This document shows positions 8,181-25,197 of a stretch of DNA of 30,311 nt, piece by piece. Positions within the stretch are counted from its first letter, which is position 1. Every line of letters starts with the position of its first letter. This stretch comes from a virus. Its lineage: Duplodnaviria; Caudoviricetes. The position numbers were made by a program, and so were the translations under genes. The notes under the pieces were generated by a model. That model searched no databases. It saw only the letters and a list, made by a program, of their open reading frames with translations, and had not been told where the DNA came from. The stretch covers positions 1 to 30,311 of the IMG/VR virus record IMGVR_UViG_3300033518_000153. The stretch is one strand, 5' to 3'.

Positions 8181-8188
8181 GTTATCTG

Positions 8189-9040: not shown

Positions 9041-9385
9041 TCATAGCAGTTTGAGGTGGCCAGTGATGGGCACCAACGCTTCATGGGTGGCTGGACCAAC
9101 TGCAATGCAGGTGTTGGTTGGCACACCGTTGAACACTGTCAGTCCTGCATCTGTCACCAGTTCGGCAATCAGTCCCGCCTCCCGGGCTTTGTTGTAGACC
9201 TCCAGTAGTTCTTCTTCGCTGCGCACCAACACGGCAATCTTGGTAAACTTGCCAGCCAGCCACTCTTTGACCTCTGCACGCTCCATGTTCAGCAAGGTAG
9301 CTTTCATGCTAGCGTGAGCGCCCTGAGCAATTAGCTTGCCCACGGGCATTTTGAGATCATGACGCATCACAATCATTTGTTTCAC
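9041..9385 (-). CDS. pth2: Peptidyl-tRNA hydrolase, Pth2 type
   Basis: KQ.IV.R.DL.M..GK.IAQ.AHAS, KIA, DAG.T, T.IAVGP, ITG.LKLL. Confidence 0.93.
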   Translation of the reverse strand: MKQMIVMRHDLKMPVGKLIAQGAHASMKATLLNMERAEVKEWLAGKFTKIAVLVRSEEELLEVYNKAREAGLIAELVTDAGLTVFNGVPTNTCIAVGPATHEALVPITGHLKLL

Positions 9386-9963
9386 TTGTTCAGTCTCTCC
9401 ACGCTGCGGCGGGCTTGCGCTCGTCCCACCTTGTCAAACAGTTGTCCGAGGACACAATAGCTTTGGTTCCAGATCCAGCGCGCAGGGCGGTTGGCAAGGA
9501 CCCAAAACAAACTCCACGGCCACATCAGCGTCCAGGTGCTGAGGCGCTCTTTGTTCTCGGCTGCGGTGAAGTCGCGGTATTTGTAGCTATGAGTGAATGC
9601 TTCAAATGCAGTAGCATATCCGCCTTCAACTGGCATGCCGTTGTTGTCGCGTGTCCAGTCTGCAAACGCGCTTTTGATAGCCGGTGCGCGGGTATTGATC
9701 CAATCAGGCCAGCGCCACAGTGCAGTGTATAGCGCGCCAACTGCCACATACAGCGCAATGATCATCAACACCATCAACGGGTTGGCGACAATAGCTGCCC
9801 ACACCGGGACTGCAAAGACAAACTCTGCCACTGCAAGGCCAACCAGCAATGTGGCCGACCCCATAAAGAAGCTGTCGTATTCTGCGCTAACGATGCCCAG
9901 AACCAGGACGGCAAGCATGAAAATGCCAAACCATGCTCCGCCAAATGCTGCTAAAAATTCCAT
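9382..9963 (-). CDS. Hypothetical membrane protein
   Basis: Likely start MEFLAAF at 9963 after AAGGA; several hydrophobic helices. Confidence 0.7.
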   Translation of the reverse strand: MEFLAAFGGAWFGIFMLAVLVLGIVSAEYDSFFMGSATLLVGLAVAEFVFAVPVWAAIVANPLMVLMIIALYVAVGALYTALWRWPDWINTRAPAIKSAFADWTRDNNGMPVEGGYATAFEAFTHSYKYRDFTAAENKERLSTWTLMWPWSLFWVLANRPARWIWNQSYCVLGQLFDKVGRAQARRSVERLNK

Positions 9964-9964
9964 G

Positions 9965-10174
9965 TTATATTCCTTGTTTTGCTCTTGCTCGACGGATAGC
10001 CTTTGCTTCCATCTTGTTGGGGACGTGCTCGCGGGTGTTGAGCTCCGCGAGAATGTCTTCGATTGGCAGATACACGCTACCGTCGTTGTATCCGCTGCCA
10101 CAGCGATATGCTGCGGCACGCCAGCTCATCAACAGACGAGTGGGCGCCTTCTTAAGTTTCTCTTCTTTGGTCAT
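9965..10174 (-). CDS. Small basic protein, paralogue of 8189..8488
   Basis: ELNTREHVPNKMEAKAIRRARAKQG; ATGA overlap with upstream gene. Confidence 0.7.
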   Translation of the reverse strand: MTKEEKLKKAPTRLLMSWRAAAYRCGSGYNDGSVYLPIEDILAELNTREHVPNKMEAKAIRRARAKQGI

Positions 10175-10359
10175 CGTTCGTTCCAATTTCCCATCATGCT
10201 GGCTGCATTCTTCATATGCTTGTAGAGCAGTCCATCTTCATGGTCAGTCTGCACCAGACGTTTCTTTGGCAACACTTCATTGAAGCGATATCTGTTGTCG
10301 TCGAATAACAAGTAGTCTACAACAAGGTATCGCGCCTTGGGGGCTTTATACAAGGTCAT
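10171..10359 (-). CDS. Hypothetical protein
   Basis: MTLYKAPKARY..., AGGA RBS. Confidence 0.55.
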   Translation of the reverse strand: MTLYKAPKARYLVVDYLLFDDNRYRFNEVLPKKRLVQTDHEDGLLYKHMKNAASMMGNWNER

Positions 10360-10382
10360 GGTGTCCTGCCTGGTGTTAGAGT

Positions 10383-10454
10383 TGGAGCCCCAGACAGGAA
10401 TCAAACCTGTCGCTCTGAGTTTAGAAGACTCTGATCCGGCTCAGCGGCTGGGGC
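10383..10454 (-). tRNA. tRNA-Arg(TCT), reduced D-arm
   Basis: Acceptor GCCCCAG/CTGGGGC, loop CT-TCT-AA, TCCA end. Confidence 0.75.
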
Positions 10455-10562
10455 ATTTTGTTTAAGTTACTACAGTGCAGCGTCAACCTGTTTTTCATAA
10501 ATAACAACGTAGTTCGCGGGCGGGAACCCCAACTACTCTATCGTCTGGAAGGACACAACAGC

Positions 10563-10991
10563 ATGAATATTTATCCATATGTCTATCGCCTAGACCACCC
10601 GAGCGGTGAGTTCTACATCGGTTATCGCTGCGCAAATCGTGTGCCAGCATCAGCAGATTTCGGTTACATATACAAAACCAGCAGCAAACATCTAAGTCAT
10701 CCGTTTGAGGAATACAGCTAAACTATCCTAGCCGAGTTCTATCTGTCCTCTGGGGCAGATGACGCATACGACTTTGAGCAAGCTGTTATTTACGAGAACT
10801 GGGGAGATCCCCAGTTAGTCAACAAAAACTGCCACCATGGCAGTAAAAGACGATTTAGCACTGCTGGGCAACGCGGAAAGAAACACTCAGCTGAAACCAG
10901 AGCAAAAATGTCGGAGGCGCGGCGCAAGAGGATAACCTCAGATGAGACCGGAGCAAAAATGGCAGAAGCGCGGTGCGCGGCTTCGTTATAG
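10563..10991 (+). pseudogene. GIY-YIG-like/NUMOD3 endonuclease with premature TAA
   Basis: MNIYPYVYRLDHPSGEFYIGYR; in-frame TAA at 10719-10721, homology to paralogues continues after it. Confidence 0.8.
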
Positions 10992-11119
10992 AGGTTGCAG
11001 TATATAAACCATGTCGATCTGCTCGTAACCTTCTAAGTCGTCGGGGTCGTCAATGAACTCGTCGTCCACGTGAAAGCCCGTCTTTTTATACCATTTCGCC
11101 ATCCACCGCATTGTTTACG

Positions 11120-11818
11120 TTATCTACTTTGGCTATAGATCTCAACCAACCTGTCAAGGCCAATGGCAATCTCACACACCCTGGTATCTTCGCTGAAGTC
11201 CTTGCGGATCGAGCAGCTTGCAATCTCCTTCCACTCATCGCGGAATGGCACTTCAATGTCCAACGTGCTTTCGCTGTATTCAGGCAAGCGATCGCTGTCA
11301 ACAACACGAGTGTCAAGCTGCAAGAAGCGCGACACTTCCTTGCGCACAAACGGAATCAGTGCAGCACGGTAGTCAGCTTGTGTGCCCACGCTGTAGATGC
11401 ATTGGAACTCCAGCTGGTAGAACTCGTTGAACCTCAGCTTGGCCGCAGTAGCGCCATCGCTCTTCTCAACACGGAAACTCTTACCAGCTTGCCAAACGCA
11501 CAGTGGCAGCTTCTTCTTGTCAAAGTTCTGACGTGCAAACATGTAGCTGCTAACAGTGGTCTCGGGGCGCAGTGCCAGATAGCTGTCTGCCTTCTTCACC
11601 TGCGTGACAAAGATGTCGCTCTCGTCGTAGCTGGGACTGACAAAGCTGCGAGGGGTAAGCAACGGGCCTTCCACACGTTTGAACTGCCATGCTCGGTTCA
11701 CACCAAGCAGTGTTTGCTTGACAACGCTGGCAAGCCGCGCTGTCATCATCTCTCGCATTTCGATTTCGTCTTCGTCCCAAAAGCGCAAGCTTTCGATTTC
11801 GTAAAGTGCCTGACTCAT
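11120..11818 (-). CDS. Glycyl-tRNA synthetase-like (alpha2-type) class II catalytic domain, no anticodon-binding domain
   Basis: LRPET, QAGKSFR.E, R..EFYQLEFQ, RLP.YS..T.DIE, W.EIAS.S.R.DF, E.AIGLDRL; only 232 aa. Confidence 0.85.
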   Translation of the reverse strand: MSQALYEIESLRFWDEDEIEMREMMTARLASVVKQTLLGVNRAWQFKRVEGPLLTPRSFVSPSYDESDIFVTQVKKADSYLALRPETTVSSYMFARQNFDKKKLPLCVWQAGKSFRVEKSDGATAAKLRFNEFYQLEFQCIYSVGTQADYRAALIPFVRKEVSRFLQLDTRVVDSDRLPEYSESTLDIEVPFRDEWKEIASCSIRKDFSEDTRVCEIAIGLDRLVEIYSQSR

Positions 11819-11879
11819 GTTGGTATTCCTAGTTGATTTTGTTTACGTTACAGCATACGCTGACATTTGTCAAGTTATT

Positions 11880-11956
11880 TGGTAGAATGCACGGGGTTCG
11901 AACCCGTTTCTCCGCCTTGAAAGGGCAGCGACCTTCGCCAAGAAGTCCAATGCGCC
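11880..11956 (-). tRNA. tRNA-Glu(TTC), poorly paired acceptor stem (possible pseudo-tRNA)
   Basis: Good D, anticodon (CT-TTC-AA) and T arms; acceptor GGCGCAT/GCATTCT mismatched. Confidence 0.6.
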
Positions 11957-12080
11957 ATTACTTAGAAGATGCACTGTGGGTTGTCTTACCTATCCATTCC
12001 CTGAGGTTTGCCGGCCGGCGTAAGGGCATAGGGTGCTTTCCCGAGCAGTTTTGAGAACAGTGCATCGTCAAAGTAATGTT

Positions 12081-12108
12081 TGGTGAACCGCCAGGGAATC
12101 GAACCCTG
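12081..12108 (-). pseudogene. Orphan tRNA 3' fragment (T arm, acceptor strand, CCA)
   Basis: CAGGGTTCGATTCCCTGGCGGTTCACCA directly after tRNA-Lys. Confidence 0.6.
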
Positions 12109-12114
12109 ATAGCT

Positions 12115-12196
12115 TGGTGAACCCGTGCAGAGTCGAACTGCTTGTCGGGGGATTAAAAGTCCCTTCCACCTCCGAGGGGGTCTAGACTACGGGTCC
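12115..12196 (-). tRNA. tRNA-Lys(TTT), atypical D region
   Basis: Acceptor GGACCCG/CGGGTTC, GGGA-CT-TTT-AA-TCCC, CCA. Confidence 0.7.
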
Positions 12197-12831
12197 AATT
12201 TTTTTATTAGTTCCTCAATGTATATTTTTTTAGCAGCATCGTCAAGTTTCTTGTATTTTGCCCACCTAACTCTGATTACCTTCCATCCGTTGTCTCGGAG
12301 GAATTTTGTTCTTCGTAAGTCGCTGCTGACGATCTTTTCATCCAAGTAGTGTTGTTCTCCATCAATCTCAAGCGCCACTTTTGGTCTTAGGAATGCAAAA
12401 TCGATACTGTATAATCGTATCTGGTATTCTTGCTCATAGTCAAGATTGTAGCTATCGAGAACCGCTTTCCAATAAATCTCCGGATATGATGCACCTCTAC
12501 TAGAGTGATTTAACAAATACGGAACCTGAGATGGATTCTTAAGCAAGTAATCGGTCCGGGCTGCAGAAATCTTTTGCTTGGTTTGGTCGGAATGTGTCCT
12601 GCCTTGCGATTTGGCTCTGATCTTTTTCTTTGTTAGATCATTGATTGCAAGTCGAGAATCAACATCCTTAGTTAAACCAGCATTCCAAGCTTTGTGGCCG
12701 GCCTTAAAGCCAGCATTTGGCGACGGCTTAGGATATATAACTCGATTTGGATTCAGGACGCAACCAAATTGATGCCTTGCTAATCCGCCCGAATTTGCAA
12801 TTTCCTTACCACAGTAAACACATGCCGCCAT
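12187..12831 (-). CDS. Vsr/DUF559-like endonuclease with N-terminal Zn finger and NUMOD3-like motif
   Basis: CVYC, HSDQTKQKIS, YSIDFAF...ALEIDGEQH...GWKVIRVRW; GGAGG RBS; stop lies inside tRNA-Lys. Confidence 0.85.
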   Translation of the reverse strand: MAACVYCGKEIANSGGLARHQFGCVLNPNRVIYPKPSPNAGFKAGHKAWNAGLTKDVDSRLAINDLTKKKIRAKSQGRTHSDQTKQKISAARTDYLLKNPSQVPYLLNHSSRGASYPEIYWKAVLDSYNLDYEQEYQIRLYSIDFAFLRPKVALEIDGEQHYLDEKIVSSDLRRTKFLRDNGWKVIRVRWAKYKKLDDAAKKIYIEELIKKLDP

Positions 12832-12871
12832 AATAGTCCTCCATTGAACTATTATTTATGCAAGTTAACTC

Positions 12872-13036
12872 CTATTGACCAATGATAGGACGCGGTCCAT
12901 ACTGTATGGATTGCATCGCGACCTTTTCCAAACGTCGCAGCGCCTTGTTGGTTTTACCGTGCGCTCCCGAACGTTTCGTAGCAAGATGGGCTACGAACGG
13001 ATTACGTTCTTTGGGCACTTGTCGTTTGTGTTTCAT
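12872..13036 (-). CDS. Small basic protein (54 aa, not in ORF track)
   Basis: MKHKRQVPKERNPFVAHLATKRSGAHGKTNKALRR...; AAAGGAG RBS, TTGACA promoter upstream. Confidence 0.7.
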   Translation of the reverse strand: MKHKRQVPKERNPFVAHLATKRSGAHGKTNKALRRLEKVAMQSIQYGPRPIIGQ

Positions 13037-13185
13037 CTTGCTCTCCTTTCTATGTAGTCAATATAACACGTTGTTGGGCAGTGTCAACCTCAATCTTCTT
13101 CGGTCCACTGCCAGTTGCCGTTCTCGTCGTAGTAGCCGATCCCAGCGTGTTCATTTCGGCTTCTGTGCTGTAGACAGGCGGTATG

Positions 13186-13256
13186 ATGCCCGAACACGAC
13201 TCGAACGTGTATCAACTGATTCAAAGTCAGCTATCCTGCCATTAGACGATCGGGCA
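13186..13256 (-). tRNA. tRNA-Gln(TTG), CCA not encoded
   Basis: Acceptor TGCCCGA/TCGGGCA, loop CT-TTG-AA. Confidence 0.85.
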
Positions 13257-13318
13257 ATATATTTGGGTTTTGTTCCTGCGTTCTGTCACGATACGCCCTG
13301 CAGACCCTACTGCCTATT

Positions 13319-13398
13319 TGGTGGACGGGATGGGAATCGAACCCACACGTTTGCCGGTTAAGAGCCGGTTCCAATTGACCACTGATTGGACCCCGTCC
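13319..13398 (-). tRNA. tRNA-Lys(CTT), 5-bp D stem
   Basis: Acceptor GGACGGG/CCCGTCC, loop CT-CTT-AA, CCA. Confidence 0.8.
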
Positions 13399-13495
13399 GA
13401 AATTTGTATAGCACATCACTCGGTAGAATTGAACCACAGTCAGCGCGTCGTCCACGTCTATGAACCATCGACCCGTCGGGTCGATGTGCTATTGT

Positions 13496-13582
13496 TGGTG
13501 GAGACGCACGGAGTTGAACCGTTAACGGTGCGCACTGTTTATCACCGCCTTGCGGCGGCCGCTGACTGGCAGCTTACGTCCC
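13496..13582 (-). ncRNA. tRNA-like RNA without canonical anticodon loop
   Basis: Acceptor GGGACGT/GCGTCTC, T arm, CCA; middle holds CCGCC-GCAA-GGCGG hairpin. Confidence 0.5.
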
Positions 13583-13594
13583 TATATTGTGTTT

Positions 13595-13670
13595 TGGTAG
13601 GCCTGTGGGGGTCGAACCCAACACCGACGCGATTTTGTAAGAATCGCCGACTACACCATAGCTGCGGCCT
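13595..13670 (-). tRNA. tRNA-Val(TAC), atypical extended anticodon stem
   Basis: GCGATT-CT-TAC-AA-AATCGC, T arm, CCA. Confidence 0.65.
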
Positions 13671-13679
13671 GTATTTGTT

Positions 13680-13756
13680 TGGTGCCCTGTGAAAGAGTCG
13701 AACTTTCTCTTGATCCATACCAGGGATCTGTGCTAAGCCGTTATCACTAACAGGGC
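13680..13756 (-). tRNA. tRNA-Thr(GGT)
   Basis: Acceptor GCCCTGT/ACAGGGC, GATCC-CT-GGT-AT-GGATC, CCA. Confidence 0.88.
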
Positions 13757-14299
13757 AATGTCTTTCCATTCAAGCTGGTGTTCAGTGAGCACAATAACGG
13801 TTATGTTATTTCTCAGCTGGGCTTGCTGGATTTTGTCTTTGTCTTTCTCCCGGAGATACGGATTCTTGGGATCCAAGTAAACGTCGTATTTCGGTAAGTA
13901 GAAATCTGGATAATACTTGTTGCCGGCATCCGTCCAAACGAACCCAGTGTTTGGCCTAGACCAAGCAATACCGTTCTTGTCAAGCGATTCAGCTACTGTT
14001 ACTTCCCACCTTGAATCAAACCATATGTCCTTGTATCGCTGTCCTTTGTTTGGATGTGGGCGATATCCACCTAAGTTAGAAGCCTTTGCTCTGGCGCTAG
14101 CTTCTTTCTTTTTTGCGTCACTCATCACATATTTTTGCAATAAACGAGACTCGGGTTGAGTCCGTGTAGCAAGGTTTAGGCGCTGTATAGTTTGGACAGT
14201 TACCTTGTAATGTTTGGCCAACTTGCGCAACGATAGTCCGTTGTCATACAACGTCTGCGCTTCGCTTTTGTCGATGTTTTTGGGTGCATACTTGTTCAT
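13733..14299 (-). CDS. HTH plus PD-(D/E)XK-type endonuclease
   Basis: LSLRKLAKHY HTH; FDSRWE...YYPDFYLP.YDVYLDPK; TATAAATA at 14305-14312; last 8 codons overlap tRNA-Thr. Confidence 0.8.
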   Translation of the reverse strand: MNKYAPKNIDKSEAQTLYDNGLSLRKLAKHYKVTVQTIQRLNLATRTQPESRLLQKYVMSDAKKKEASARAKASNLGGYRPHPNKGQRYKDIWFDSRWEVTVAESLDKNGIAWSRPNTGFVWTDAGNKYYPDFYLPKYDVYLDPKNPYLREKDKDKIQQAQLRNNITVIVLTEHQLEWKDIALLVITA

Positions 14300-14310
14300 G
14301 TGTTTATTTA

Positions 14311-14347
14311 TACCCAAAGAGGTGTAATACCATTATACGATAGCAGC
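14311..14347 (-). pseudogene. Orphan tRNA 5' half truncated at the anticodon loop
   Basis: GCTGCTA TC GTA TAATGGTAT TAC A CCTCT TTGGGTA running into TATAAATA. Confidence 0.6.
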
Positions 14348-14355
14348 ATGTTAGT

Positions 14356-14431
14356 TGGTAGCCCCAGCCGGACTTGAACCGAGCATCATTAGATTGAAAG
14401 TCTAGTATCCTTACCTTTAGACGATGGGGCC
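14356..14431 (-). tRNA. tRNA-Glu(TTC)
   Basis: Acceptor GGCCCCA/TGGGGCT, loop CT-TTC-AA, CCA. Confidence 0.8.
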
Positions 14432-14438
14432 GTTGTTT

Positions 14439-14513
14439 TGGTGCACGAAGAAGGAATCAAACCCTCGACATCCGCGTTACGAAGGCGGCGTTCTCTCACT
14501 GAACTACTCGTGC
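14439..14513 (-). tRNA. tRNA-Thr(CGT)
   Basis: Acceptor GCACGAG/TTCGTGC, loop TT-CGT-AA, CCA. Confidence 0.75.
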
Positions 14514-14519
14514 ATGAAT

Positions 14520-14597
14520 TGGTGTGCTGTCCTGGACTCGAACCTGGTTCTGCTGCTTTTCAGACAGCCGCTAAATCACCCGACTAGCTCACAGCAC
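14520..14597 (-). tRNA. tRNA-Phe(GAA)
   Basis: Acceptor GTGCTGT/ACAGCAC, loop CT-GAA-AA, CCA. Confidence 0.85.
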
Positions 14598-14604
14598 ATT
14601 GTTT

Positions 14605-14689
14605 TGGTGCACGGGATCGAACACCGCGCCGTTACCGGAAAAGCTTTACAGGCTCCTGCAAGAACCATCTTGCCTTACTTGCGCTCCCC
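14605..14689 (-). tRNA. tRNA-Tyr(GTA), degenerate acceptor/T stem
   Basis: GGAGC-CT-GTA-AA-GCTTT, variable arm, TTCGATC, CCA; acceptor does not pair. Confidence 0.55.
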
Positions 14690-14694
14690 ATATT

Positions 14695-14769
14695 TGGAAC
14701 CAGGTATGGGAGTTGAACCCAATCCATCTCAGTCACAGTGAGATATGCTACCCTTACACCTTACCTGGC
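14695..14769 (-). tRNA. tRNA-His(GTG)
   Basis: TCTCA-CT-GTG-AC-TGAGA, T arm, CCA. Confidence 0.85.
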
Positions 14770-14823
14770 ACTATTGGTCCCGACGGTAGGATTTGAACCT
14801 GGCTATCCACAATCGGGTGTGCT

Positions 14824-14871
14824 CGCCTCTAAGAGATGTAGTCTTACTATGCTATTTATCTCTTAGAGGCG
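14824..14871. repeat. Perfect 14-bp inverted repeat
   Basis: CGCCTCTAAGAGAT / ATCTCTTAGAGGCG; overlaps a minus-strand ATAAATA. Confidence 0.8.
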
Positions 14872-14878
14872 CTCTATG

Positions 14879-14947
14879 TAGTGCCAGTGAGAGTTGAACT
14901 CACCCTAGATCCTTATGAGAGATCTGTCCGAACCACTCGGTGTCACC
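14879..14947 (-). tRNA. tRNA-Met or Ile2 (CAT), compact, CCA not encoded
   Basis: GATCT-CT-CAT-AA-GGATC, GTGAG-TTCAACT-CTCAC. Confidence 0.65.
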
Positions 14948-14953
14948 ATATCT

Positions 14954-15028
14954 TGGAGTCACGTAACGGAGTTAAACCGTTCTAACTGGGTTTGCAATCC
15001 AGTGCCTCTGTCGCTCGGCCAACGTGAC
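14954..15028 (-). tRNA. tRNA-Cys(GCA)
   Basis: Acceptor GTCACGT/ACGTGAC, loop TT-GCA-AA, U73, CCA. Confidence 0.88.
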
Positions 15029-15182: not shown

Positions 15183-15219
15183 AAAAAACCCTCCTAGTAT
15201 CGCTACTGGAGGGCTTTTT
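15183..15219 (-). terminator. Attenuator terminator A
   Basis: CCCTCCAGTA-GCGA-TACTAGGAGGG-TTTTTT. Confidence 0.9.
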
Positions 15220-15242: not shown

Positions 15243-15338
15243 CTAGCATCCGGTTCCGCCTCCAGTGTTCTCGCCAAAGCGATACTCACGGCATTTTTCA
15301 ATGCGAATCTCAAACATATGTTGCTGGACGTGGGTCAT
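15243..15338 (-). CDS. Putative attenuator leader peptide A (31 aa, MTHVQQHMFEIRIEKCREYRFGENTGGGTGC)
   Basis: Between promoter and terminator; ACTGGAGG (15259-15266) is complementary to terminator 5' arm; codons mirror downstream tRNAs. Confidence 0.75.
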   Translation of the reverse strand: MTHVQQHMFEIRIEKCREYRFGENTGGGTGC

Positions 15339-15390: not shown

Positions 15391-15419
15391 ACTGTATACT
15401 TATTTATCTCTGCCGTCAA
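15391..15419 (-). promoter_or_regulatory. Sigma70-like promoter with embedded late motif, upstream of leader A
   Basis: TTGACG-N17-TACAGT with ATAAATA in the spacer. Confidence 0.7.
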
Positions 15420-18001: not shown

Positions 18002-18076
18002 TGGAGCGGGCGATGGGATTCGAACCCACAACTTCAACCTCGGCAAGGTTGCACTCTACCATTGAGCTACGCCAGC
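18002..18076 (-). tRNA. tRNA-Gly(GCC)
   Basis: CAACC-TT-GCC-GA-GGTTG, TCCA. Confidence 0.88.
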
Positions 18077-18084
18077 ATGTGATT

Positions 18085-18158
18085 TGGAGCGGGTAGCGGG
18101 GAACGATCCCGCTTCTGAGCGTTGGCAACGCGCCGTAATACCTTTATACGATACCCGC
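18085..18158 (-). tRNA. tRNA-Gly(GCC), second divergent copy
   Basis: Acceptor GCGGGTA/TACCCGC, loop TT-GCC-AA, TCCA. Confidence 0.85.
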
Positions 18159-18189
18159 ATTTGTTTTGGTCTGTATTGGACCGTTGTTT

Positions 18190-18241
18190 TGGTCCGAGTG
18201 GACCGTTGTTGTTTGGTCTGGCCAAGCTGAGCTACACTCGG
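18190..18241 (-). pseudogene. Collapsed tRNA-Pro-like remnant
   Basis: CCGAGTG TAGCTCAGCTTGGCCAGA...CACTCGG ACCA; anticodon and T arms absent. Confidence 0.6.
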
Positions 18242-18651
18242 ATATCTTTTCTACGCTGCCAAGCAAGCTTCATTGCTTCGCTTTGTGTCTTCTTGTATTT
18301 ATCTGTCTTGTGGTTCGCAGAATTCTTATTCTGCATCATCTTGCTAGAAATTATCGCTTTGGTTTCGTCTGTATGAGCATCAACGCCGCCGGCGGCATTA
18401 AGTGATATTTTACTTCTATGCTCGGCTGTCTTTGGTATTCCTTTGTTGCCCTTGCCGCCTAACCTTGATTTCTCTAGCAGCATTTCTTCTTGGCCTATTA
18501 GTTTCAACAGACCCAAATACGCAATCTTGTCTTCAACTTTTCCGTATTGCTCATACAGCACACGATGCGCTTCAGCATGTTCTTCGATGGTCAACTCGAT
18601 TAGGTTAGTCGGATTATCGTCGCCGCCCATATGCCTGGGAATGATGTGATG
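18232..18651 (-). pseudogene. HNH/NUMOD3 endonuclease, 5'-truncated
   Basis: HHIIPRHMGGDDNPTNLIELTIEEHAEAH; first His pair lies upstream of the first ATG (18630). Confidence 0.7.
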
Positions 18652-18689
18652 GAGAGTCTTTCAGTCACGCGGTAAGCCGCGAGCTGTAT

Positions 18690-18773
18690 TGGTGCGGATA
18701 GAGGGACTCGAACCCCCACGCCTTGCGGCAATGCGTTCTAAGCGCATCAAGTCTACCATTTCATCATATCCGC
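18690..18773 (-). tRNA. tRNA-Leu(TAG)
   Basis: ATGCG-CT-TAG-AA-CGCAT, variable arm, CCA. Confidence 0.92.
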
Positions 18774-18780
18774 ATTAGTA

Positions 18781-18860
18781 TGGAGGCCTAGAATGGATTT
18801 GAACCACTACCTTTACCCTTGCACGGGTAACGAGTTAAATGCCAATTTCTCTACCAGGCC
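18781..18860 (-). tRNA. tRNA-Cys-like (GCA) with non-7-nt anticodon loop
   Basis: Acceptor GGCCTGG/CTAGGCC, U73-CCA, TTACCC-GTGCAA-GGGTAA. Confidence 0.55.
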
Positions 18861-18865
18861 AATTC

Positions 18866-19372
18866 TTAGAATTCGTTTGCTGACCTCGGAACCTTCTTTG
18901 GATCCAATTTGGGCAGCGGTTGTTTAGTCTCTTTGTAGGTTGATGGCCAACGTGCTGCCAGCAGTCTAGTCTTTACAATACGCACAATGCTCACTGTATC
19001 GCCCTGGTTGCCACCTAGCACATAGTAGTCTGTGGCGTCTTCGCCGACCAATATGCCCACGTGTCCTGCGTTTTCGCCTCGGCTAAACGCACCAATTGCG
19101 CCATACACTGGCTTGGTTGCTTTTCCTAGTAGGGCCCAGTTACGAGCCCAATATGGGTTCTCTCCAAGCGCACCTGGAAACGGTTCTTTGGGCAGTGAGT
19201 TCTTAATCACCGTCTCAGCAAAGTCACCGCACCATGGCAGTTTGGCTGGATCGCCCAGCGTCTTACCATCCGACTTGAGCCAAGCTCGCAGTTTGGTTGC
19301 GTCTCTACTTTCGTGTAGGCCCCAAACCTTTTTGGCTTCAACAATCCATGGTAGTTCTTTAACAGCTAACAT
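18866..19372 (-). CDS. TIGR02594-family (NlpC/P60/CHAP-like) cell-wall hydrolase
   Basis: PWI..A...G..E, PWC..F, AR.W, GHVG, VLGGNQ.D.V, RWP. Confidence 0.85.
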   Translation of the reverse strand: MLAVKELPWIVEAKKVWGLHESRDATKLRAWLKSDGKTLGDPAKLPWCGDFAETVIKNSLPKEPFPGALGENPYWARNWALLGKATKPVYGAIGAFSRGENAGHVGILVGEDATDYYVLGGNQGDTVSIVRIVKTRLLAARWPSTYKETKQPLPKLDPKKVPRSANEF

Positions 19373-19467
19373 AGCACATCTCCCGTTGCTATGTCTATAT
19401 TTATTGCCTCTGTGGTTTAATACAGTTTTTGTTATACTATGGTAAATAGTTCAAAGGAGATCAAACT

Positions 19468-19827
19468 ATGCCAAAAAAAGGTGAAGTTGTTAAAACGCAC
19501 TTATGCGAAACATGTGGCGAACGCAATCCAACTAACTTCAATCCCAGGATGAAAGGCACTTGCAAAAAGTGCCATACAAGGGACATTGAACGGCGTCGAG
19601 TATCGCGCAGAGAACTAGCCATTGAATACAAGGGCGGCAAGTGTGAGCATTGCGGTTACAACAAATTCCGTGGCGCTCTTGAGTTTCACCACAAAGACCC
19701 AACACTAAAGGATCCACAGGGTTTGAAGGCTGTCAAGCTTTCGAAGTTGTTTGCCGAAGTTGACAAATGTCTGCTACTGTGCGCTAACTGTCATAGGGAA
19801 GAACATGACCGTATACGTTATGGTTGA
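19468..19827 (+). CDS. HNH endonuclease
   Basis: KGGKCEHCGY...LEFHHKDP...E.DKC.LLCANCHREEH; TAAATA and AAGGAG upstream. Confidence 0.9.
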   Translation: MPKKGEVVKTHLCETCGERNPTNFNPRMKGTCKKCHTRDIERRRVSRRELAIEYKGGKCEHCGYNKFRGALEFHHKDPTLKDPQGLKAVKLSKLFAEVDKCLLLCANCHREEHDRIRYG

Positions 19828-20030
19828 ATATGCACCGAACCCTTATACTACATGGCCAACGCCAAGGCGGTCGAGCTAATCCCGCATCTTCTGGTTATCC
19901 CCAGCTGTATTATAGGACGCGTCAACGCCCGCCGCTCTAGTTCTTTCGGACCACAACAGTTGACGATTCGTCAAGTCGAGCATAGGACTTATTGGTGCTA
20001 GTGGAGGGACTCGCCTTTCACTAGCTAATT

Positions 20031-20105
20031 TGGTGCCCCAGGTCGGAATCGAACCAACACACTCGCCTTACAAGAGCGAACCTCTACCATTAAGGATACA
20101 AGGGC
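20031..20105 (-). tRNA. tRNA-Thr(TGT)
   Basis: TCGCT-CT-TGT-AA-GGCGA, CCA. Confidence 0.88.
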
Positions 20106-20108
20106 TTA

Positions 20109-20249
20109 TTAGTAACTTTTCTGTTCGGCATACCTTACTCGTCTTGAATGCCTACCATTACCTTTATTTTTAGATTTATACGTTGCAGTTTGCGAATGGC
20201 AATTCGGACACAATAGACTTAAATTTTCTTCGCTGTTATTTATCATCAT
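20109..20249 (-). pseudogene. HNH C-terminal remnant
   Basis: NNSEENLSLLCPNCHSQTATYKSKNKGNGR, similar to 16363..16644. Confidence 0.7.
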
Positions 20250-20282
20250 AACTAAAAAAGGTGCTGTCGCCGCTGAGCCACA

Positions 20283-20543
20283 CTAGCGTATTTCTTCGAG
20301 GTATTTATACACCTCGTCGTAGGACTTGAACATTCTGGTTCCACGCTTTGATACTACGCGCACATCGTCTCCGAAGCACTGCACTAGTCCAAATCCTGGA
20401 TACCTACCGTTACCAAGTCGTCTTGCATTCCATCTGGTGCGGCGCGCCCCTGGTGTCGCAAACTCGTGCGGTATACCTAGTATGTCTGCGCAGCGCCCGT
20501 AAAATTCTTCTTTCTCTTCGTTTGTCTTTTTCATATTGCCCAC
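20283..20543 (-). CDS. Hypothetical protein
   Basis: RRTRWNARRLGNGRYPGFGLV motif, 86 aa. Confidence 0.65.
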   Translation of the reverse strand: MGNMKKTNEEKEEFYGRCADILGIPHEFATPGARRTRWNARRLGNGRYPGFGLVQCFGDDVRVVSKRGTRMFKSYDEVYKYLEEIR

Positions 20544-20832
20544 TCACATACGGATATTGTTGTTTAGATAGGCCTGGCACTCCAACACGCCTTCTCGAGT
20601 GTAATGTTGTCTAGCCGGGTAGCTTGCGGCATTCCTCACACTTCTCATGCGGGCCTAAATTGTATTGCGCCGCTGAACACTACCACAGCGTTTGAGTTAT
20701 TTACTAATCCCGCTCCATGATCAGTGGGGTTGAGCCTCGTGCTATTACCTCATCCCACTCCACGTGGGCACCACGTGTCCGATTCAACACGGTGCACCGC
20801 GTCTCATCTTTTTCTGTGGCCTAGCGCAAACT

Positions 20833-20906
20833 TGGAGCGGGTGAAGGGAGTCGAACCCTCGTCTTCTACTTGGAAGGCAGTGGCTCTACCATTGAGCTAC
20901 ACCCGC
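20833..20906 (-). tRNA. tRNA-Gly(TCC)
   Basis: Canonical, loop CT-TCC-AA, TCCA. Confidence 0.92.
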
Positions 20907-20984
20907 ATTATCTCTTGCATACCCTGAAAAGGTTACCACCGTAGTGCGTCCCAGCTCTGTTATGGCTGGATGACCGTGCTGTTT

Positions 20985-21070
20985 TGGCGGAGCGGCTGGG
21001 AGTCGAACCCAGTGAACTCGAAAGTCCTACAGATTAGCAATCTGCTGCATTACCATCCTGCCCCCGCTCC
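20985..21070 (-). tRNA. tRNA-Ser(GCT)
   Basis: GCAGA-TT-GCT-AA-TCTGT, variable arm, GCCA. Confidence 0.92.
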
Positions 21071-21076
21071 ATTGCG

Positions 21077-21298
21077 TCACTTTTTAGTGCTGCATGTGAA
21101 CTCAAGTCCACTTTGTCTTGCAGCATAGAAGTGAGGCGTTGTAGTTTTGTATAGTGTCATCTTGATGAACCCTGGAAGGATCACCACAATCTTGTCTGCC
21201 GTGGTCTGGATCAACTCTGCTTCTTGCTTCTTGCCATTGTTCGTGCAGTAAACGTCTACCAGATCCTTGAACCTCGAGCTAGTATTGATGTCTGCCAA
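21077..21298 (-). CDS. Hypothetical protein
   Basis: 73 aa, AAGGA RBS, TTGACT promoter upstream. Confidence 0.65.
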   Translation of the reverse strand: MADINTSSRFKDLVDVYCTNNGKKQEAELIQTTADKIVVILPGFIKMTLYKTTTPHFYAARQSGLEFTCSTKK

Positions 21299-21386
21299 CT
21301 CTACGTTCCTTCTTTGTCAGTTAACTATAGCACTACCTAGTGCCACAGTCAACCTTTGTTTTTGGTGCGCGATGAGCGCATATTTT

Positions 21387-21462
21387 TGGTAGGGGATGAG
21401 AGGGTCGAACTCCCGACATTCTGCGTGTAAAACAGACGCTACTACCACTGAGCTAATCCCCC
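21387..21462 (-). tRNA. tRNA-Val(TAC)
   Basis: TCTGT-TT-TAC-AC-GCAGA, CCA. Confidence 0.9.
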
Positions 21463-21469
21463 AATGTTT

Positions 21470-21546
21470 TGGTGGACCCTGTCGGGATCGAACCGACGAA
21501 CCTCCTGAATGCAAATCAGGCGCTCTCCCAACTGAGCTAAGGGCCC
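21470..21546 (-). tRNA. tRNA-Ala(TGC)
   Basis: G3:U70, loop TT-TGC-AT, CCA. Confidence 0.93.
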
Positions 21547-21576
21547 TTTCTTATTTTCAATGTAACACACTATTGT

Positions 21577-22212
21577 TTAGGTGTCAACATGTTTATTTAG
21601 CACTCTTCCGAAACGCCAACCTGCCGGCACAGTATCTGTTGCTGATATCTTTTTGTTGTTAAGACCATCAGTAATCCATACTTTTCCAAACTGACTGTTT
21701 TTCTCTCCAACTGCAACCCCTTTTGAGCTGGCTCTTATTTTTTGCTTAGTCTCGCTGCTATGGGCTTTTCCTTTGAACCCATCGTGTCGTATACGTCCTG
21801 CTAGTCGTGCAGCCTCAAAGTTGTTACTGCATTGCGGATTTTTTCTTCCTCTGCGTTTTTCAGCAGTTTTCCTAATTCCGCGCATTTTTGATTCAGTTGG
21901 CAAGTTGTTGATGCCAAGTTGATTGATATAACCAAACCCGCCTTGACCGCCTACGCACAAGTTGTAGTTGTCTTTTCGTAGACACCATTCTTCAGTAACC
22001 AGCTCTTTTTCTTTTTGATTCATTTCGGCTTCTGTGCTGTAGACATGCAGTATGGTTTTAACGAAGTTCTCGGCGCCGTATTTGGCAATGGCTCTCTTCA
22101 GGTGCTTGCCCGAACCCATATAGCCGTCGTTGACTTGACTGGTTTCGTGCTTACCGATGTAAGTTTTGCCATTCACCAAGTTAGTGATTTTGTAGATGGT
22201 GTAGTATTTCAT
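21577..22212 (-). CDS. GIY-YIG (Seg-like) homing endonuclease
   Basis: YTIYKITNLVNGKTYIGKH...DGYMGSG...YN...GG.GGF, NUMOD3; likely start MKYY at 22212. Confidence 0.92.
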   Translation of the reverse strand: MKYYTIYKITNLVNGKTYIGKHETSQVNDGYMGSGKHLKRAIAKYGAENFVKTILHVYSTEAEMNQKEKELVTEEWCLRKDNYNLCVGGQGGFGYINQLGINNLPTESKMRGIRKTAEKRRGRKNPQCSNNFEAARLAGRIRHDGFKGKAHSSETKQKIRASSKGVAVGEKNSQFGKVWITDGLNNKKISATDTVPAGWRFGRVLNKHVDT

Positions 22213-22279
22213 GTTGTGCTCGCCTGCAAATGGAATAGTCTGATTGTTATTGCTATTTACCATTTGCAGGCGCTCTATG

Positions 22280-22350
22280 CGCGCTATGCGGGGCTCGAAC
22301 CCGCTACACCGGTTAGACAGACCAGTGAGATACCCATTCACCAATAGCGC
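22280..22350 (-). tRNA. tRNA-Asp(GTC), CCA not encoded
   Basis: Acceptor GCGCTAT/ATAGCGC, loop CT-GTC-TA, G73. Confidence 0.8.
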
Positions 22351-22550
22351 ATTATTCTGGTGCGTGTTTACTCCCTACACGCAGGTCCCACACATCACCG
22401 CAGCATACAAAGCCTGCTGGGCTACAACGTGCGTGGCGCTGGCTTTCTAGTTTTGACATGCTTTGGTCGGCTCACCGATTCGAACGGTTAAGTAATACGA
22501 GTAGTATCCGCATACCTACGCCAAAGAACGCTCGTAACTCATGTCAAAAT

Positions 22551-22625
22551 TGGCAAGGGTGGAGAGATTCGAACTCTCACTGCAAGGTTTTGGAGACCCG
22601 CCGACTTCCAGTATCATACACCCCT
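22551..22625 (-). tRNA. tRNA-Trp(CCA)
   Basis: Acceptor AGGGGTG/CACCCTT, loop CT-CCA-AA, GCCA. Confidence 0.88.
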
Positions 22626-22760
22626 ATAATCTGTAACCAGTTACTGGATTCGAACCAGAATCTACTCTAGGGCCAATTACTCCCATCACTGAGCGTGTTA
22701 ACCTGCATCACTGCAGGAAGGCTTACCATTCGCCAATTTTACAACCACAACCGGTAATCT

Positions 22761-22824
22761 TGGCTCCTTGTGCTGGGCTCGAACCAGCGACACTCTGATT
22801 AATAATCAGATACTCTAACAAGGA
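22761..22824 (-). tRNA. D-armless tRNA-Asn-like (ATT), possible pseudogene
   Basis: Perfect acceptor, anticodon and T stems; D arm reduced to TAGAGTA. Confidence 0.6.
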
Positions 22825-22832
22825 ACGATCTC

Positions 22833-23222
22833 TTAAACGCCGTAACGGTTGCGCTTTGGTTTAGCTACAACACTGGCTTTGTTTGTGTTTGGTGGTTCTT
22901 GGCTGCGCTGGCTTGTAAGCTTGGTGGGTGTAACACCCATCAATTTAGCAGCCTTGTTCATAATCTCAAGTTCTTCTGGCGTGTATGTGCCAACTAGGAA
23001 GTTTTCAGCATACGCACTTTCTTGGTCAAACGGTTGATCGCTGCTGGCTGCTGCCAACGCAATTCCCATTCTGTATTGCATGTAACTGTCAGTGTTGCGC
23101 AGTTGCTTGAATGCATTCATGCCGGTGTTCACTGCGTCAAACGCTGGATCAACCTCTCCAGGCGTTCCCATAGCGCCGTCACCGTAAACAGCTTCACTTA
23201 GTATTTCATGCAATCGCATCAC
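22833..23222 (-). CDS. Hypothetical late protein
   Basis: MRLHEILSE N-terminus, AAGGA RBS, TAAATA at 23241-23246. Confidence 0.75.
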   Translation of the reverse strand: MMRLHEILSEAVYGDGAMGTPGEVDPAFDAVNTGMNAFKQLRNTDSYMQYRMGIALAAASSDQPFDQESAYAENFLVGTYTPEELEIMNKAAKLMGVTPTKLTSQRSQEPPNTNKASVVAKPKRNRYGV

Positions 23223-23314
23223 GTGTCCTTTTGGCTACAGTATTTAGCCAAAATTCTTGCGTCTTATGGATTTGGCGTCCTGCGCTAGTGTAAACCCATC
23301 ATGTTCTTCTCACT

Positions 23315-23387
23315 TGGCAGGGGACCCCTGAATTGAACAGGGACCTGAACCGGCAATCGGGACTACGCTGCATTACACCAATCCCCT
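23315..23387 (-). tRNA. tRNA-like gene with degenerate anticodon arm (nominal TTG)
   Basis: Acceptor AGGGGAT/GTCCCCT, T arm, GCCA; loop GATTGCC lacks U33. Confidence 0.5.
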
Positions 23388-23576
23388 GTAACCTGCTAAG
23401 TTCTCCAACAACTGATTACCCAGCGCCTCTGGTGGAGCGTTTGTTGGATAGGCGTGCATTGACGCCTCGTTTTACTTCTAACATGTAGTCTTGTAAACTT
23501 TGGCCAATCTTTCCCGGTGTCAGCATTGTAGGATTTCTCATGTCCAAGAGCGCGGTTGCTTCGCTTCAGACTAACT

Positions 23577-23655
23577 TGGTCCGGGTGGCTGGATTTGAAC
23601 CAGCGTTCTCCTGTTTCCAAAACAGGCAGATTAAACCATGCTTTCCCACACCCGG
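23577..23655 (-). tRNA. tRNA-Pro(TGG)
   Basis: CCTGT-TT-TGG-AA-ACAGG, acceptor CCGGGTG/CACCCGG, CCA. Confidence 0.88.
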
Positions 23656-23663
23656 ATATTTTT

Positions 23664-23742
23664 TGGTTGCGCAGACTGGATTTGAACCAATGATCTCCAG
23701 CTTATGAGGCTAGCGAGGACGCCCTGACTCCTCTACCGCGCG
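23664..23742 (-). tRNA. tRNA-fMet(CAT), initiator-like
   Basis: C1:A72 mismatch, loop CT-CAT-AA, CCA. Confidence 0.85.
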
Positions 23743-23757
23743 ACAATTCTTTAGTTT

Positions 23758-23843
23758 TGGCTCGGACGGGAGGAATCGAACCTCCGCCAACTTAATGGGA
23801 CACTGGTTAACAGCCAGGCACATTACCACTCTGTCACATCCGA
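23758..23843 (-). tRNA. tRNA-Asn(GTT) with long variable region
   Basis: Acceptor TCGGATG/CGTCCGA, loop CT-GTT-AA, GCCA. Confidence 0.82.
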
Positions 23844-24130: not shown

Positions 24131-24904
24131 CTGGACGACTCAGTGGGAATGATTTAGTAACACTGCACGACGGATTTGAACCGTCTCCCCTTTCGACCCG
24201 AGGGAACCGCCATATGACGCTTGGGTGCCCACTACAGTGTATGTGTTTGGCTCTATCCGCATTAGGACGATTTAACTGCTCTAGCCTCACAGTGCCGTGT
24301 CGTATGTGGTTCTACCAGCGGGCTGGCGACTTAGCTGACGCCCTCACTATCGTCAGTGCCGTGTTATATCTCTCCAGCTTGCAACCTCACGGGCTGCTCT
24401 AGAAGCGTTATTGTTTAGCTTCAAGGTCTCCCACTGGAATGACCTTTCTTGGGGCTCGCGCCGCCTTGGCTTGGAAACAAAACAAGACCGTCTGCGTTTC
24501 TACGCGCGTTGCTGCTCGGGGTTTCCCTGTTACAGTTGGCCCTTCCTGCACCTCGTCGATCTCGTTCTGTTTTGATATACGCACACCATGACGCTGGGAT
24601 TTCTCCGCTGACCGTATGCCGAATCGAACGACAATGCGTATATCAAAACAGAACAGCCATACTCAGTCTGGTTCGACCTACGTCTCCCAGCTTAGAGGTA
24701 TGACCCCTCTGTTTCTTCGGCCCGTCATCGCTTATCTGCTGGGGCCATCATACTAAATTTTCAATGAGCGTGTAAACTTTCGTCTACATAGCTAACTTAG
24801 CGCATCTTGTTTGCTTCGTCAACCACTATTTTGTCGTCTGTCGTATCTTTTTGTCTTCTTCTGGAAGTTCTGGTTTGCACCGTCTACGTTCCGTCTACTG
24901 TTAC

Positions 24905-24933
24905 TATATAAGCTGTCTCGTCGTGTTTGTCAA
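24905..24933 (-). promoter_or_regulatory. Sigma70-like promoter downstream of terminator B
   Basis: TTGACA-N17-TATATA. Confidence 0.6.
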
Positions 24934-24956: not shown

Positions 24957-24990
24957 AAAAAACCCTCCTAGCATCGCTGCTGGAGGGTTT
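24957..24990 (-). terminator. Attenuator terminator B
   Basis: AAACCCTCCAGCA-GCGA-TGCTAGGAGGG-TTTTTT; homologous to terminator A with a compensatory pair. Confidence 0.9.
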
Positions 24991-25018
24991 CAAAAACTTT
25001 TGGACTGTTTCTTGTCCG

Positions 25019-25108
25019 TTAGCCTCCGTAACCCTCCGAGCATAGATCCACACTCGGATTTGTCCATCCGTTGCTACCTAGTGCTACTGTGTTGGCGAGT
25101 GTAAACAT
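25019..25108 (-). CDS. Putative attenuator leader peptide B (29 aa, MFTLANTVALGSNGWTNPSVDLCSEGYGG)
   Basis: AAGGA and ATAAATA upstream; GGAGGGTT (25030-25037) is complementary to terminator 5' arm; codons mirror downstream tRNAs. Confidence 0.75.
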   Translation of the reverse strand: MFTLANTVALGSNGWTNPSVDLCSEGYGG

Positions 25109-25197
25109 TGAAAACTATCGTCCTTCTTATCTTTTATTTATCTCTTGTAGTCTATAGACTACAGCAAATCGGCCTCGATCTGCAATATTTTTCTGCC

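What the first reader, a model, noticed from the sequence alone, without database searches (positions are those of the whole stretch)
24957..25142. Attenuator B architecture with protector hairpin and codon-level anticodon match
22 of codons 2-24 specify cluster B amino acids, often as the exact cognate codon: ACA x3 (Thr-TGT), GTA (Val-TAC), GCA (Ala-TGC), CTA x2 (Leu-TAG), AAC x2 (Asn-GTT), AGC (Ser-GCT), GGA (Gly-TCC), TGG (Trp), TGC (Cys-like). TCCGAGTGT/ATGCTCGGA forms a 1:2 protector overlapping GGAGGGTT, which can pair with AACCCTCC of the terminator (2:3). Terminators A and B differ by a compensatory T-A/C-G pair. Caveat: sigma70-like promoters near 24933 and 24822 lie downstream of the terminator, so attenuation may govern only late (ATAAATA) or read-through transcripts.
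Basis: partly seen in the sequence, partly recalled or inferred. Interest (0 to 1): 0.88.

Follow-up and report, generated by a model that had tools for sequence, protein, structure and literature searches.

The report
Ribosome-sensing switch before phage tRNA genes
A large phage places a 29-codon mini-gene and a transcription-stop hairpin with a competing fold in front of a block of its own tRNA genes; the mini-gene is written almost only in amino acids those tRNAs serve, so it likely lets late transcription run into the tRNA block when ribosomes stall for lack of them, a control known for amino-acid genes that my searches did not find described for tRNA genes.

Summary
Leader B (25108-25019, minus strand) matches cluster B at 22 of 23 codons by amino acid (p=0.001). 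Leader A (15338-15243) matches cluster A at 20 of 20, and the two compositions are complementary (Fisher 2e-7). Related phages gave 62 distinct leader-terminator units. Geometry is fixed and the antiterminator is stronger than the terminator. In three relatives a different terminator stem comes with a matching change of the antiterminator arm.

Three corrections. (1) The exact-codon claim is weak: 13 of 22 against 10.2 expected (p=0.13). (2) The 1:2 protector is paired but does not covary, whereas an unnoticed upstream hairpin does; modelling predicts read-through unless a ribosome passes codon 22-23. (3) The caveat is real and conserved: promoter-like sites follow terminator B in 11 of 14 homologs and only ATAAATA precedes the leader (21 of 21), so B likely gates a late transcript only, while A gates its whole cluster.

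Verdict: a likely ribosome-coupled attenuator of tRNA genes, with no RNA data and no paper found. The scan noted this kind of element before on other genomes.

The parts
25135..25141 (-). ATAAATA, predicted phage late promoter of leader B
   Evidence: Within 95 nt upstream of 21 of 21 B leaders, with no TTGAC-type promoter there in any. 17 copies on the coding strand against 4 on the other, several just before ORF starts. Same consensus predicted as late promoter in phage CBB (PMC5259590 passages). Not shown experimentally.
25121..25125 (-). Purine-rich ribosome-binding-like site (AAGGA), 12 nt before the ATG
   Evidence: an AAGGA-like run is in the consensus of alignment A1
25019..25108 (-). 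Leader ORF B, 29 codons; codons 2-24 sample the amino acids of cluster B
   Evidence: start ATG invariant in 21 homologs; no Pfam match
25055..25070 (-).
   Evidence: covariation in A1 with four pair types at one position, 0 of 500 shuffles
25035..25058 (-). 1:2 protector hairpin (TCCGAGTGT/ATGCTCGGA)
   Evidence: 90% paired in A1, no excess covariation. Predicted in the window's nascent RNA before region 3 is made, but in only 1 of 21 naked B homologs
24982..25037 (-). 2:3 antiterminator: GGAGGGTT with AACCCTCC, closing a long inner stem that spans the stop codon
   Evidence: spacer-shuffle z -5.3 in the window, median -2.8 over 45 units; arm changes together with the terminator in L149, L193, L194
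24957..24990 (-). 3:4 intrinsic terminator B with a six-T tract
   Evidence: -17.9 kcal/mol
24905..24933 (-). Sigma70-like promoter (TTGACA-17-TATATA) just after terminator B
   Evidence: promoter-like site between terminator and first tRNA in 11 of 14 B homologs
24794..24822 (-). Second, weaker sigma70-like promoter (TTGACG-17-TAAGTT)
   Evidence: a second TTGAC occurs at similar spacing in most B homologs
24757..24769 (-). rrn boxA-like motif after the two promoters
   Evidence: Pattern match in 8 of 14 B homologs; the likeness to rRNA-operon boxA is recalled, not tested
18002..23843 (-). tRNA cluster B: Asn-GTT, initiator-like Met-CAT, Pro-TGG, Trp, Asp, Ala-TGC, Val-TAC, Ser-GCT, Gly-TCC, Thr-TGT, Cys-like gene, Leu-TAG, Gly-GCC x2, plus degenerate Asn-ATT-like genes and internal promoter-like sites at 21587 and 21352
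   Evidence: initiator-like and Cys-like labels are read by eye
15243..15338 (-). Paralogous leader ORF A, 31 codons; codons 2-21 all specify amino acids of cluster A
15183..15216 (-). Terminator A
15391..15419 (-). Combined TTGACG and ATAAATA promoter upstream of leader A
   Evidence: each motif upstream in 22 of 24 A homologs, and no promoter match between terminator and first tRNA in 0 of 23
7869..15028 (-). tRNA cluster A: Cys, Met/Ile2-CAT, His, Phe, Thr-CGT, Glu, Thr-GGT, Lys, Gln, Arg, Leu-GAG, plus degenerate Tyr, Ile, Val, Lys, Arg genes read by eye

Best explanation
Unit B is likely a ribosome-coupled transcription attenuator that would let a late phage transcript read through into tRNA cluster B when translation of its 29-codon leader is slow or absent. 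Shown directly: the leader, the alternative hairpins, the terminator, their conservation in 21 B-type and 24 A-type units, and the amino-acid match to the downstream tRNAs. Inferred: transcription starts at ATAAATA and a ribosome follows the polymerase. If the leader's codons are read quickly, the ribosome covers region 2 (from about codon 22-23) and the terminator forms. If it stalls on any of codons 2-21, or never initiates, region 2 pairs with region 3 first (about -22 against -17 kcal/mol) and polymerase continues into the tRNA genes. The upstream 0:1 hairpin would keep the 1:2 protector from forming, which makes read-through the default, the reverse of trp. The signal would be the supply of charged tRNA for about 11 amino acids, for example after host tRNA cleavage or starvation. 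Early expression of cluster B probably comes from the promoter-like sites after the terminator and escapes this control. The paralogous unit A would do the same for the complementary tRNA set and has no bypass promoter.
For: Amino-acid match and A/B complementarity: 16 vs 1 and 2 vs 18 exclusive codons, Fisher p=2e-7. The match falls off after the modelled switch point: A 20 of 20 then 4 of 10; B 22 of 23 then 3 of 5. A scan with the terminator alone gave 32 loci: 25 carry tRNA genes and have an upstream leader, and the 7 without tRNAs have none. Region 2 sits at codon 23-27 and the stop is 25-31 nt from region 3 in 45 units. The region-2 Glu codon is GAG in 42 of 42, against 28 GAG and 26 GAA for other Glu codons of A leaders; the region-1 Asn codon is AAT in 21 of 21. 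The inner antiterminator stem beats spacer shuffles (z<-2 in 32 of 45). In three B leaders found without the terminator pattern (L149, L193, L194) the terminator is GCCC-type, region 2 is GGGC-type, and 2:3 still folds. Isoacceptor split in homologs, window excluded: Thr ACA 32 of 39 in B leaders against ACT/ACC 22 of 23 in A; Ile ATA 17 of 17 against ATT/ATC 53 of 53. Read by eye: the window is the only one of 21 B leaders without a Gln codon and its Gln tRNA lies in cluster A, whose leader has two Gln codons; the five A leaders without Cys head clusters where no Cys tRNA was called.
Against: There is no transcript evidence. Promoter-like sites follow terminator B in 11 of 14 homologs, and more lie inside cluster B, so B can control only part of the cluster's output. 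On the full transcript at equilibrium the terminator is favoured in 14 of 21 naked B units and 20 of 24 A units (its window-B row used the wrong GGAGG copy), so the switch depends on co-transcriptional order. In four A units with a GCCTCC terminator region 2 stayed GGAGGG, and L080 has a weak region 2. Codon and tRNA content mismatch in places: no Ala or Cys-like gene was called behind L144/L148; L162 has a Gln tRNA but no Gln codon; Ser AGC (23) in A leaders and Leu CTC (13) in B leaders have no matching tRNA in their own cluster. The exact-codon match is not significant. Homologs are related, and the metagenome scan required region 2, so pooled counts are not independent. No formal test of leader-versus-cluster covariation was run.
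Confidence: 0.66

Rival explanations
1. Classical trp-like logic: the 1:2 protector traps region 2, so untranslated or early-stalled leaders terminate and only stalls at about codons 14-21 give read-through.
For: In the window's own nascent RNA, up to the stop codon, the protector is the predicted fold when naked and with a ribosome at codons 3-13. It is 90% paired in homologs. Codons 14-23 are ten different amino acids in a row. Terminator probability on the full window transcript is 0.00 for stalls at 15-21 but up to 0.78 at codon 11.
Against: No excess covariation in 1:2. The competing 0:1 hairpin covaries and wins in 20 of 21 naked B leaders. 2:3 is the predicted fold at all tested positions from 3 to 19 in 21 of 21. 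Codons 2-13 match the cluster too, which this model does not explain.
Confidence: 0.17
2. Terminator B is a mostly constitutive insulator that ends upstream transcription. Cluster B is driven by the promoters after it, and the leader is a vestige or only couples termination to translation in general.
For: A conserved promoter-like pair and a boxA-like motif after terminator B; further promoter-like sites inside cluster B; equilibrium often favours the terminator.
Against: It does not explain the cluster-specific amino-acid content, the A/B complementarity, the synonymous constraint, or the joint change of region 2 and the terminator. Terminator look-alikes without tRNAs lack leaders in 12 of 12 distinct cases.
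Confidence: 0.1
3. The conserved product is the peptide itself (a small effector or a nascent-chain arrest peptide), and the RNA structure is secondary.
For: The C-terminal third of the peptide is conserved in most B homologs.
Against: The conserved residues coincide with paired regions and use fixed codons. They change wholesale where the terminator changes. The N-terminal half diverges in sequence but keeps its composition. No Pfam match.
Confidence: 0.05

Closest known systems
Ribosome-mediated leader-peptide attenuators of amino-acid operons (trpL; PMC4615214 passages), and the multivalent thrL and ilvGMEDA leaders (recalled)
   Same: Short translated leader rich in the regulated amino acids, overlapping 1:2 and 2:3 hairpins and an intrinsic terminator; a ribosome stall gives read-through
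   Different: The target is an array of tRNA genes in a phage. About 11 amino acids are sampled once to a few times rather than in runs. An extra upstream hairpin and a 2:3 stronger than 3:4 predict read-through when untranslated, whereas untranslated trp leaders terminate. Two paralogous leaders split the amino acids between them. No Rfam leader family reaches its cut-off; Phe_leader scores 17.7 bits against a cut-off of 55.
E. coli pheM-pheST attenuator (recalled)
   Same: Leader-peptide attenuation of a component of the translation machinery, sensing charged tRNA
   Different: It controls a synthetase and senses one amino acid; here the products are the tRNAs themselves
T-box riboswitches (recalled)
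   Same: tRNA supply read out as termination or antitermination
   Different: T-boxes bind uncharged tRNA directly and need no ribosome. No Rfam T-box match in the window or in four homolog loci.
Phage tRNAs that counter tRNA-cleaving defences, e.g. T5-like tRNA-Tyr against retron-Eco7 (PMC11555353 passages)
   Same: A phage tRNA block whose level of expression matters for infection
   Different: There the control described is promoter strength. The words attenuat* and leader do not occur in that paper's main text.

Membership tests
Ribosome-mediated transcription attenuator | Short leader ORF with start signals upstream of an intrinsic terminator | tested here: met
Ribosome-mediated transcription attenuator | Mutually exclusive antiterminator overlapping the leader's 3' end and the terminator's 5' arm | tested here: met
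   joint change in L149, L193, L194
Ribosome-mediated transcription attenuator | Leader codons related to the function of the downstream genes | tested here: met
   Met at the level of amino acid and isoacceptor; not met for exact Watson-Crick codons
Ribosome-mediated transcription attenuator | 1:2 protector that makes the untranslated leader terminate (trp type) | tested here: inconclusive
   Paired but not covarying; models favour read-through when untranslated
Ribosome-mediated transcription attenuator | Promoter upstream, none between terminator and regulated genes | tested here: inconclusive
   Met for A (0 of 23 with an intervening match). For B a bypass promoter-like site is found in 11 of 14.
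Ribosome-mediated transcription attenuator | Termination changes with leader translation and charged-tRNA supply | not testable with these tools
   Needs Term-seq or reporter assays
Rfam amino-acid leader families (Phe, Thr, His, Leu, Trp leaders) | Score above the family's gathering threshold | tested here: not met
T-box riboswitch | T-box leader covariance-model match | tested here: not met

The most novel reading that the evidence does not exclude
These phages run a two-channel tRNA-supply gauge. Two paralogous leaders divide the amino acids between them, each is recoded when tRNA genes move between clusters, and each turns on its own tRNA block when ribosomes fail on any of its codons. This would be on-demand replacement of tRNAs destroyed by host anticodon nucleases or lost to starvation: a feedback loop from tRNA supply to tRNA gene transcription.
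Probability: 0.5. Interest if true: 0.9.

Novelty: new variant of a known kind. Interest (0 to 1): 0.8.

Why it matters
Why phages carry tRNA arrays is a long-standing question, with codon bias and replacement of cleaved host tRNAs as the main answers. A leader that samples the array's own amino acids and gates its transcription would show that the array is a regulated response to tRNA shortage, and it says which tRNAs the phage monitors. It extends leader-peptide attenuation from amino-acid and synthetase genes to tRNA genes. The element is about 200 nt and portable, so a reporter can test it, and it could serve as a sensor of tRNA-targeting defence.

Tried and rejected
BLASTN of window B, a homolog B and a homolog A leader against 50,697 cultured phage records gave no relevant match. 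The terminator pattern is absent from Sinorhizobium phage Phosso, the best hit of the neighbouring decarboxylase. The exact window terminator pattern found 0 viral contigs. A region-2 pattern found 10 loci, of which only 1 was a true homolog. The generic terminator pattern gave 62 loci, of which 1 was a homolog. The genome-contig scan gave 1 hit, a 2.8-kb contig with the same phage-type cluster inside a bacterial bin, read as a binned phage fragment. Sequencing runs: no RNA holder listed. One search used a wrong Pfam accession, so a late sigma factor in related genomes was not tested. One search timed out after window B, window A and L065; searches replaced it with minimum-energy folds. A formal permutation test of leader content against cluster content was not run, so that covariation rests on reading by eye. 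The exact-codon match was tested and rejected as a general feature. Earlier scan notes by sequence, by place and by promoter words gave nothing.

Full report
Setting. The window is a 30.3-kb virus record with 26 tRNA genes called on the minus strand, homing endonucleases, tail-like proteins, a class II synthetase-like domain and an ornithine decarboxylase. A relative carrying the same element (G001, 330 kb) has a T4 gp23-type capsid gene, so these are large T4-like phages. No cultured phage matched the leaders, and the host is unknown.

Observation. Leader B runs 25108-25019 with 29 codons. The terminator spans 24990-24957, and the first called tRNA of cluster B starts at 23843. 22 of codons 2-24 specify amino acids served by cluster B, against a background of 0.66 (p=0.001; 21 of 4265 windows in real ORFs); over the whole ORF it is 25 of 28 (p=0.006). 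The stronger test is internal. A paralogous leader A (15338-15243) with a near-identical terminator precedes cluster A and matches it at 20 of 20 codons (p=1e-6; 0 of 4319 windows). Counting only amino acids exclusive to one cluster gives 16 vs 1 for B and 2 vs 18 for A (Fisher p=2e-7). These sets include degenerate tRNA genes that I read by eye (Cys-like in B; Tyr, Ile, Val in A). Exact Watson-Crick codon identity is not above chance: B 13 of 22 against 10.2 (p=0.13), A 7 of 19 against 10.8.

Homologs. A scan of viral contigs with the terminator alone gave 32 loci. 25 carry tRNA genes and each has a short ORF ending just upstream of the terminator; the 7 without tRNAs have none. Adding a variant-terminator scan (13 loci), a leader-A scan (14 loci, 5 with tRNAs) and a metagenome scan (56 loci) gave 74 distinct terminator contexts: 21 B-type, 24 A-type, 17 other leaders, and 12 with no leader and no downstream tRNA. 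The metagenome pattern required region 2, so pooled geometry is partly circular, and many units are close relatives. Region 2 lies at codon 23-27 and the stop codon 25-31 nt before region 3 in all 45 A and B units. The region-2 Glu codon is GAG in 42 of 42 units where it occurs, while other Glu codons of A leaders are 28 GAG and 26 GAA; the region-1 Asn codon is AAT in 21 of 21. Selection therefore acts on the RNA, not only on the peptide.

Structure. The 2:3 hairpin extends through the stop codon into a long inner stem whose sequence varies widely. It is stronger than the terminator (medians -22.3 vs -17.2 kcal/mol in B, -21.9 vs -15.9 in A) and stronger than 60 mononucleotide shuffles of its spacer (median z -2.8; below -2 in 32 of 45; window B -5.3). 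The best evidence comes from four B leaders found by promoter motif or position rather than by the terminator pattern. In three of them (L149, L193, L194) the terminator stem is GCCC-type instead of CCCTCC, region 2 has become GGGC-type, and 2:3 still folds before the 3' arm appears; L193 and L194 are similar and may be one event. Against this, four A units with a GCCTCC terminator keep GGAGGG, and L080 has a weak region 2. An upstream hairpin sharing region 1 shows A-U, C-G, G-U and U-A at one position (covariation 0 of 500 shuffles; this control ignores relatedness).

Mechanism (modelled). I blocked 15 nt behind and 12 nt ahead of the P-site's first base. Before the terminator's 3' arm is made, 2:3 is the predicted fold when naked and with a ribosome at codons 3-19 in 21 of 21 B units, at codon 21 in 20 of 21, and from codon 23 in none; A behaves alike (21-24 of 24). 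The switch point follows from where region 2 lies, but it coincides with the end of the matched codons in both leaders. In the window, terminator probability on the full transcript is 0.01 naked, 0.07-0.78 for stalls at 2-14, 0.00 at 15-21 and 1.00 from codon 23. At equilibrium the terminator wins in 14 of 21 naked B units and 20 of 24 A units, so the outcome depends on folding order. In the window itself the protector is predicted on the short nascent RNA, which keeps a trp-like reading alive. My best reading is default read-through, with termination when a ribosome clears codons 2-21 in time.

What it senses. In homologs (window excluded), B leaders use Thr ACA in 32 of 39 and Ile ATA in 17 of 17, and A leaders use ACT/ACC in 22 of 23 and ATT/ATC in 53 of 53. 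This mirrors Thr-TGT in B clusters and Thr-GGT and Ile-GAT in A clusters. A leaders mostly use the U-ending wobble codons of G34 tRNAs (Tyr TAT 26 of 26, Phe TTT 39 of 42), so the rule is 'read by that tRNA', not exact complement. These positions are homologous and not independent. By eye: nine B clusters seen through the Leu-Pro stretch carry a Gln tRNA and their leaders a Gln codon, while the window lacks both in B and has both in A, as does L103 in A. The five A leaders without Cys head clusters where no Cys tRNA was called. L171, with extra Leu and Asp codons, has Leu and Asp tRNAs. Counter-examples: no Ala or Cys-like gene called behind L144/L148, none Cys-like behind L195, a Gln tRNA without a Gln codon in L162, Thr codons without a Thr tRNA in several A units, and Ser AGC and Leu CTC codons with no matching tRNA in their own cluster. 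A formal test was not run.

Promoters. All 21 B leaders have ATAAATA and none a TTGAC-type promoter within 95 nt upstream. After terminator B, 11 of 14 units with a downstream tRNA have a sigma70-like match, all 14 have TTGAC, and 8 have a boxA-like motif. A units have each promoter motif upstream in 22 of 24 and no match between terminator and first tRNA in 0 of 23. ATAAATA is strand-biased in the window (17 vs 4) and was predicted as the late promoter of phage CBB (PMC5259590, passages).

Comparison and novelty. It works like a multivalent leader-peptide attenuator (trp model from PMC4615214, passages; thr, ilv and pheST recalled) but matches no Rfam leader or T-box family. The paper searches (listings with abstract starts only) showed no report of attenuation of tRNA genes. 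Passages of PMC11555353 attribute phage tRNA rescue to promoter strength, and passages of PMC3082878 were not relevant. The library lacks most subscription journals, and I read no supplements, so a prior description cannot be excluded. The scan's notes list 57 findings with these words in at least 55 other genomes; of the 8 shown, one was later marked as standing and five as in doubt. None matched this sequence. I had stated my reading before seeing them and did not test them.

Verdict. A real, conserved element and a likely tRNA-supply-sensing attenuator; a new variant of a known kind. Function is inferred from comparison and folding only.

Noticed in passing
window 24750-24150 (-): A 600-nt stretch without a convincing gene, between the boxA-like motif and the HNH gene. 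It has a perfect 20-bp inverted repeat (24564-24583 / 24635-24654), a folding z of -3.9 for 24550-24760 and a tRNA-like T-arm at 24182, but no Rfam match. Possibly an unknown ncRNA; B homologs carry a different conserved stretch at this place.
   Followed up: partly
window 18781-18860 (-); L065 12616-12688: tRNA-like gene with a 6-nt anticodon loop containing GCA, between Thr-TGT and Leu-TAG, also seen in relatives (called '???(gc)'); ordinary Cys genes occupy the same place in L193 and L194.
   Followed up: partly
window 15030-15180 (-): Conserved, structured stretch right after terminator A, also seen in several A homologs; role unknown.
   Followed up: no
window 14315-14345 and 13733-14317 (-): 5' half of a tRNA-like gene (Gln-TTG-like) cut off at the anticodon by an ATAAATA motif and an endonuclease gene.
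   Followed up: no
window 7185-7234, 10495-10838, 17364-17703, 28161-28446: A repeated element of about 290 nt with a conserved upstream hairpin, on the + strand opposite the gene flow, probably decayed homing-endonuclease copies (families D1 and D11).
   Followed up: no
window 11120-11818 (-), 25450-26592 (-): A class II aminoacyl-tRNA synthetase core domain inside cluster A, and an ornithine/lysine decarboxylase upstream of leader B.
   Followed up: no
window 25198-25389 (-): 63-aa Ala/Lys/Thr-rich ORF with three 24-nt tandem repeats behind a strong sigma70-like promoter at 25453; no terminator was called between it and leader B, so it could feed read-through transcripts into the attenuator.
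   Followed up: no
L194 5278-5742; L195 61-522: GOLLD RNA within or beside B-type tRNA clusters of relatives; none called in the window.
   Followed up: no
L092, L095, L177, L193, L199: tRNAs with stop-codon anticodons (CTA, TTA) in clusters of relatives.
   Followed up: no
window 22764-22824 and 23315-23387 (-): Degenerate tRNA-like genes with an ATT anticodon, the first with a shortened D-arm.
   Followed up: no
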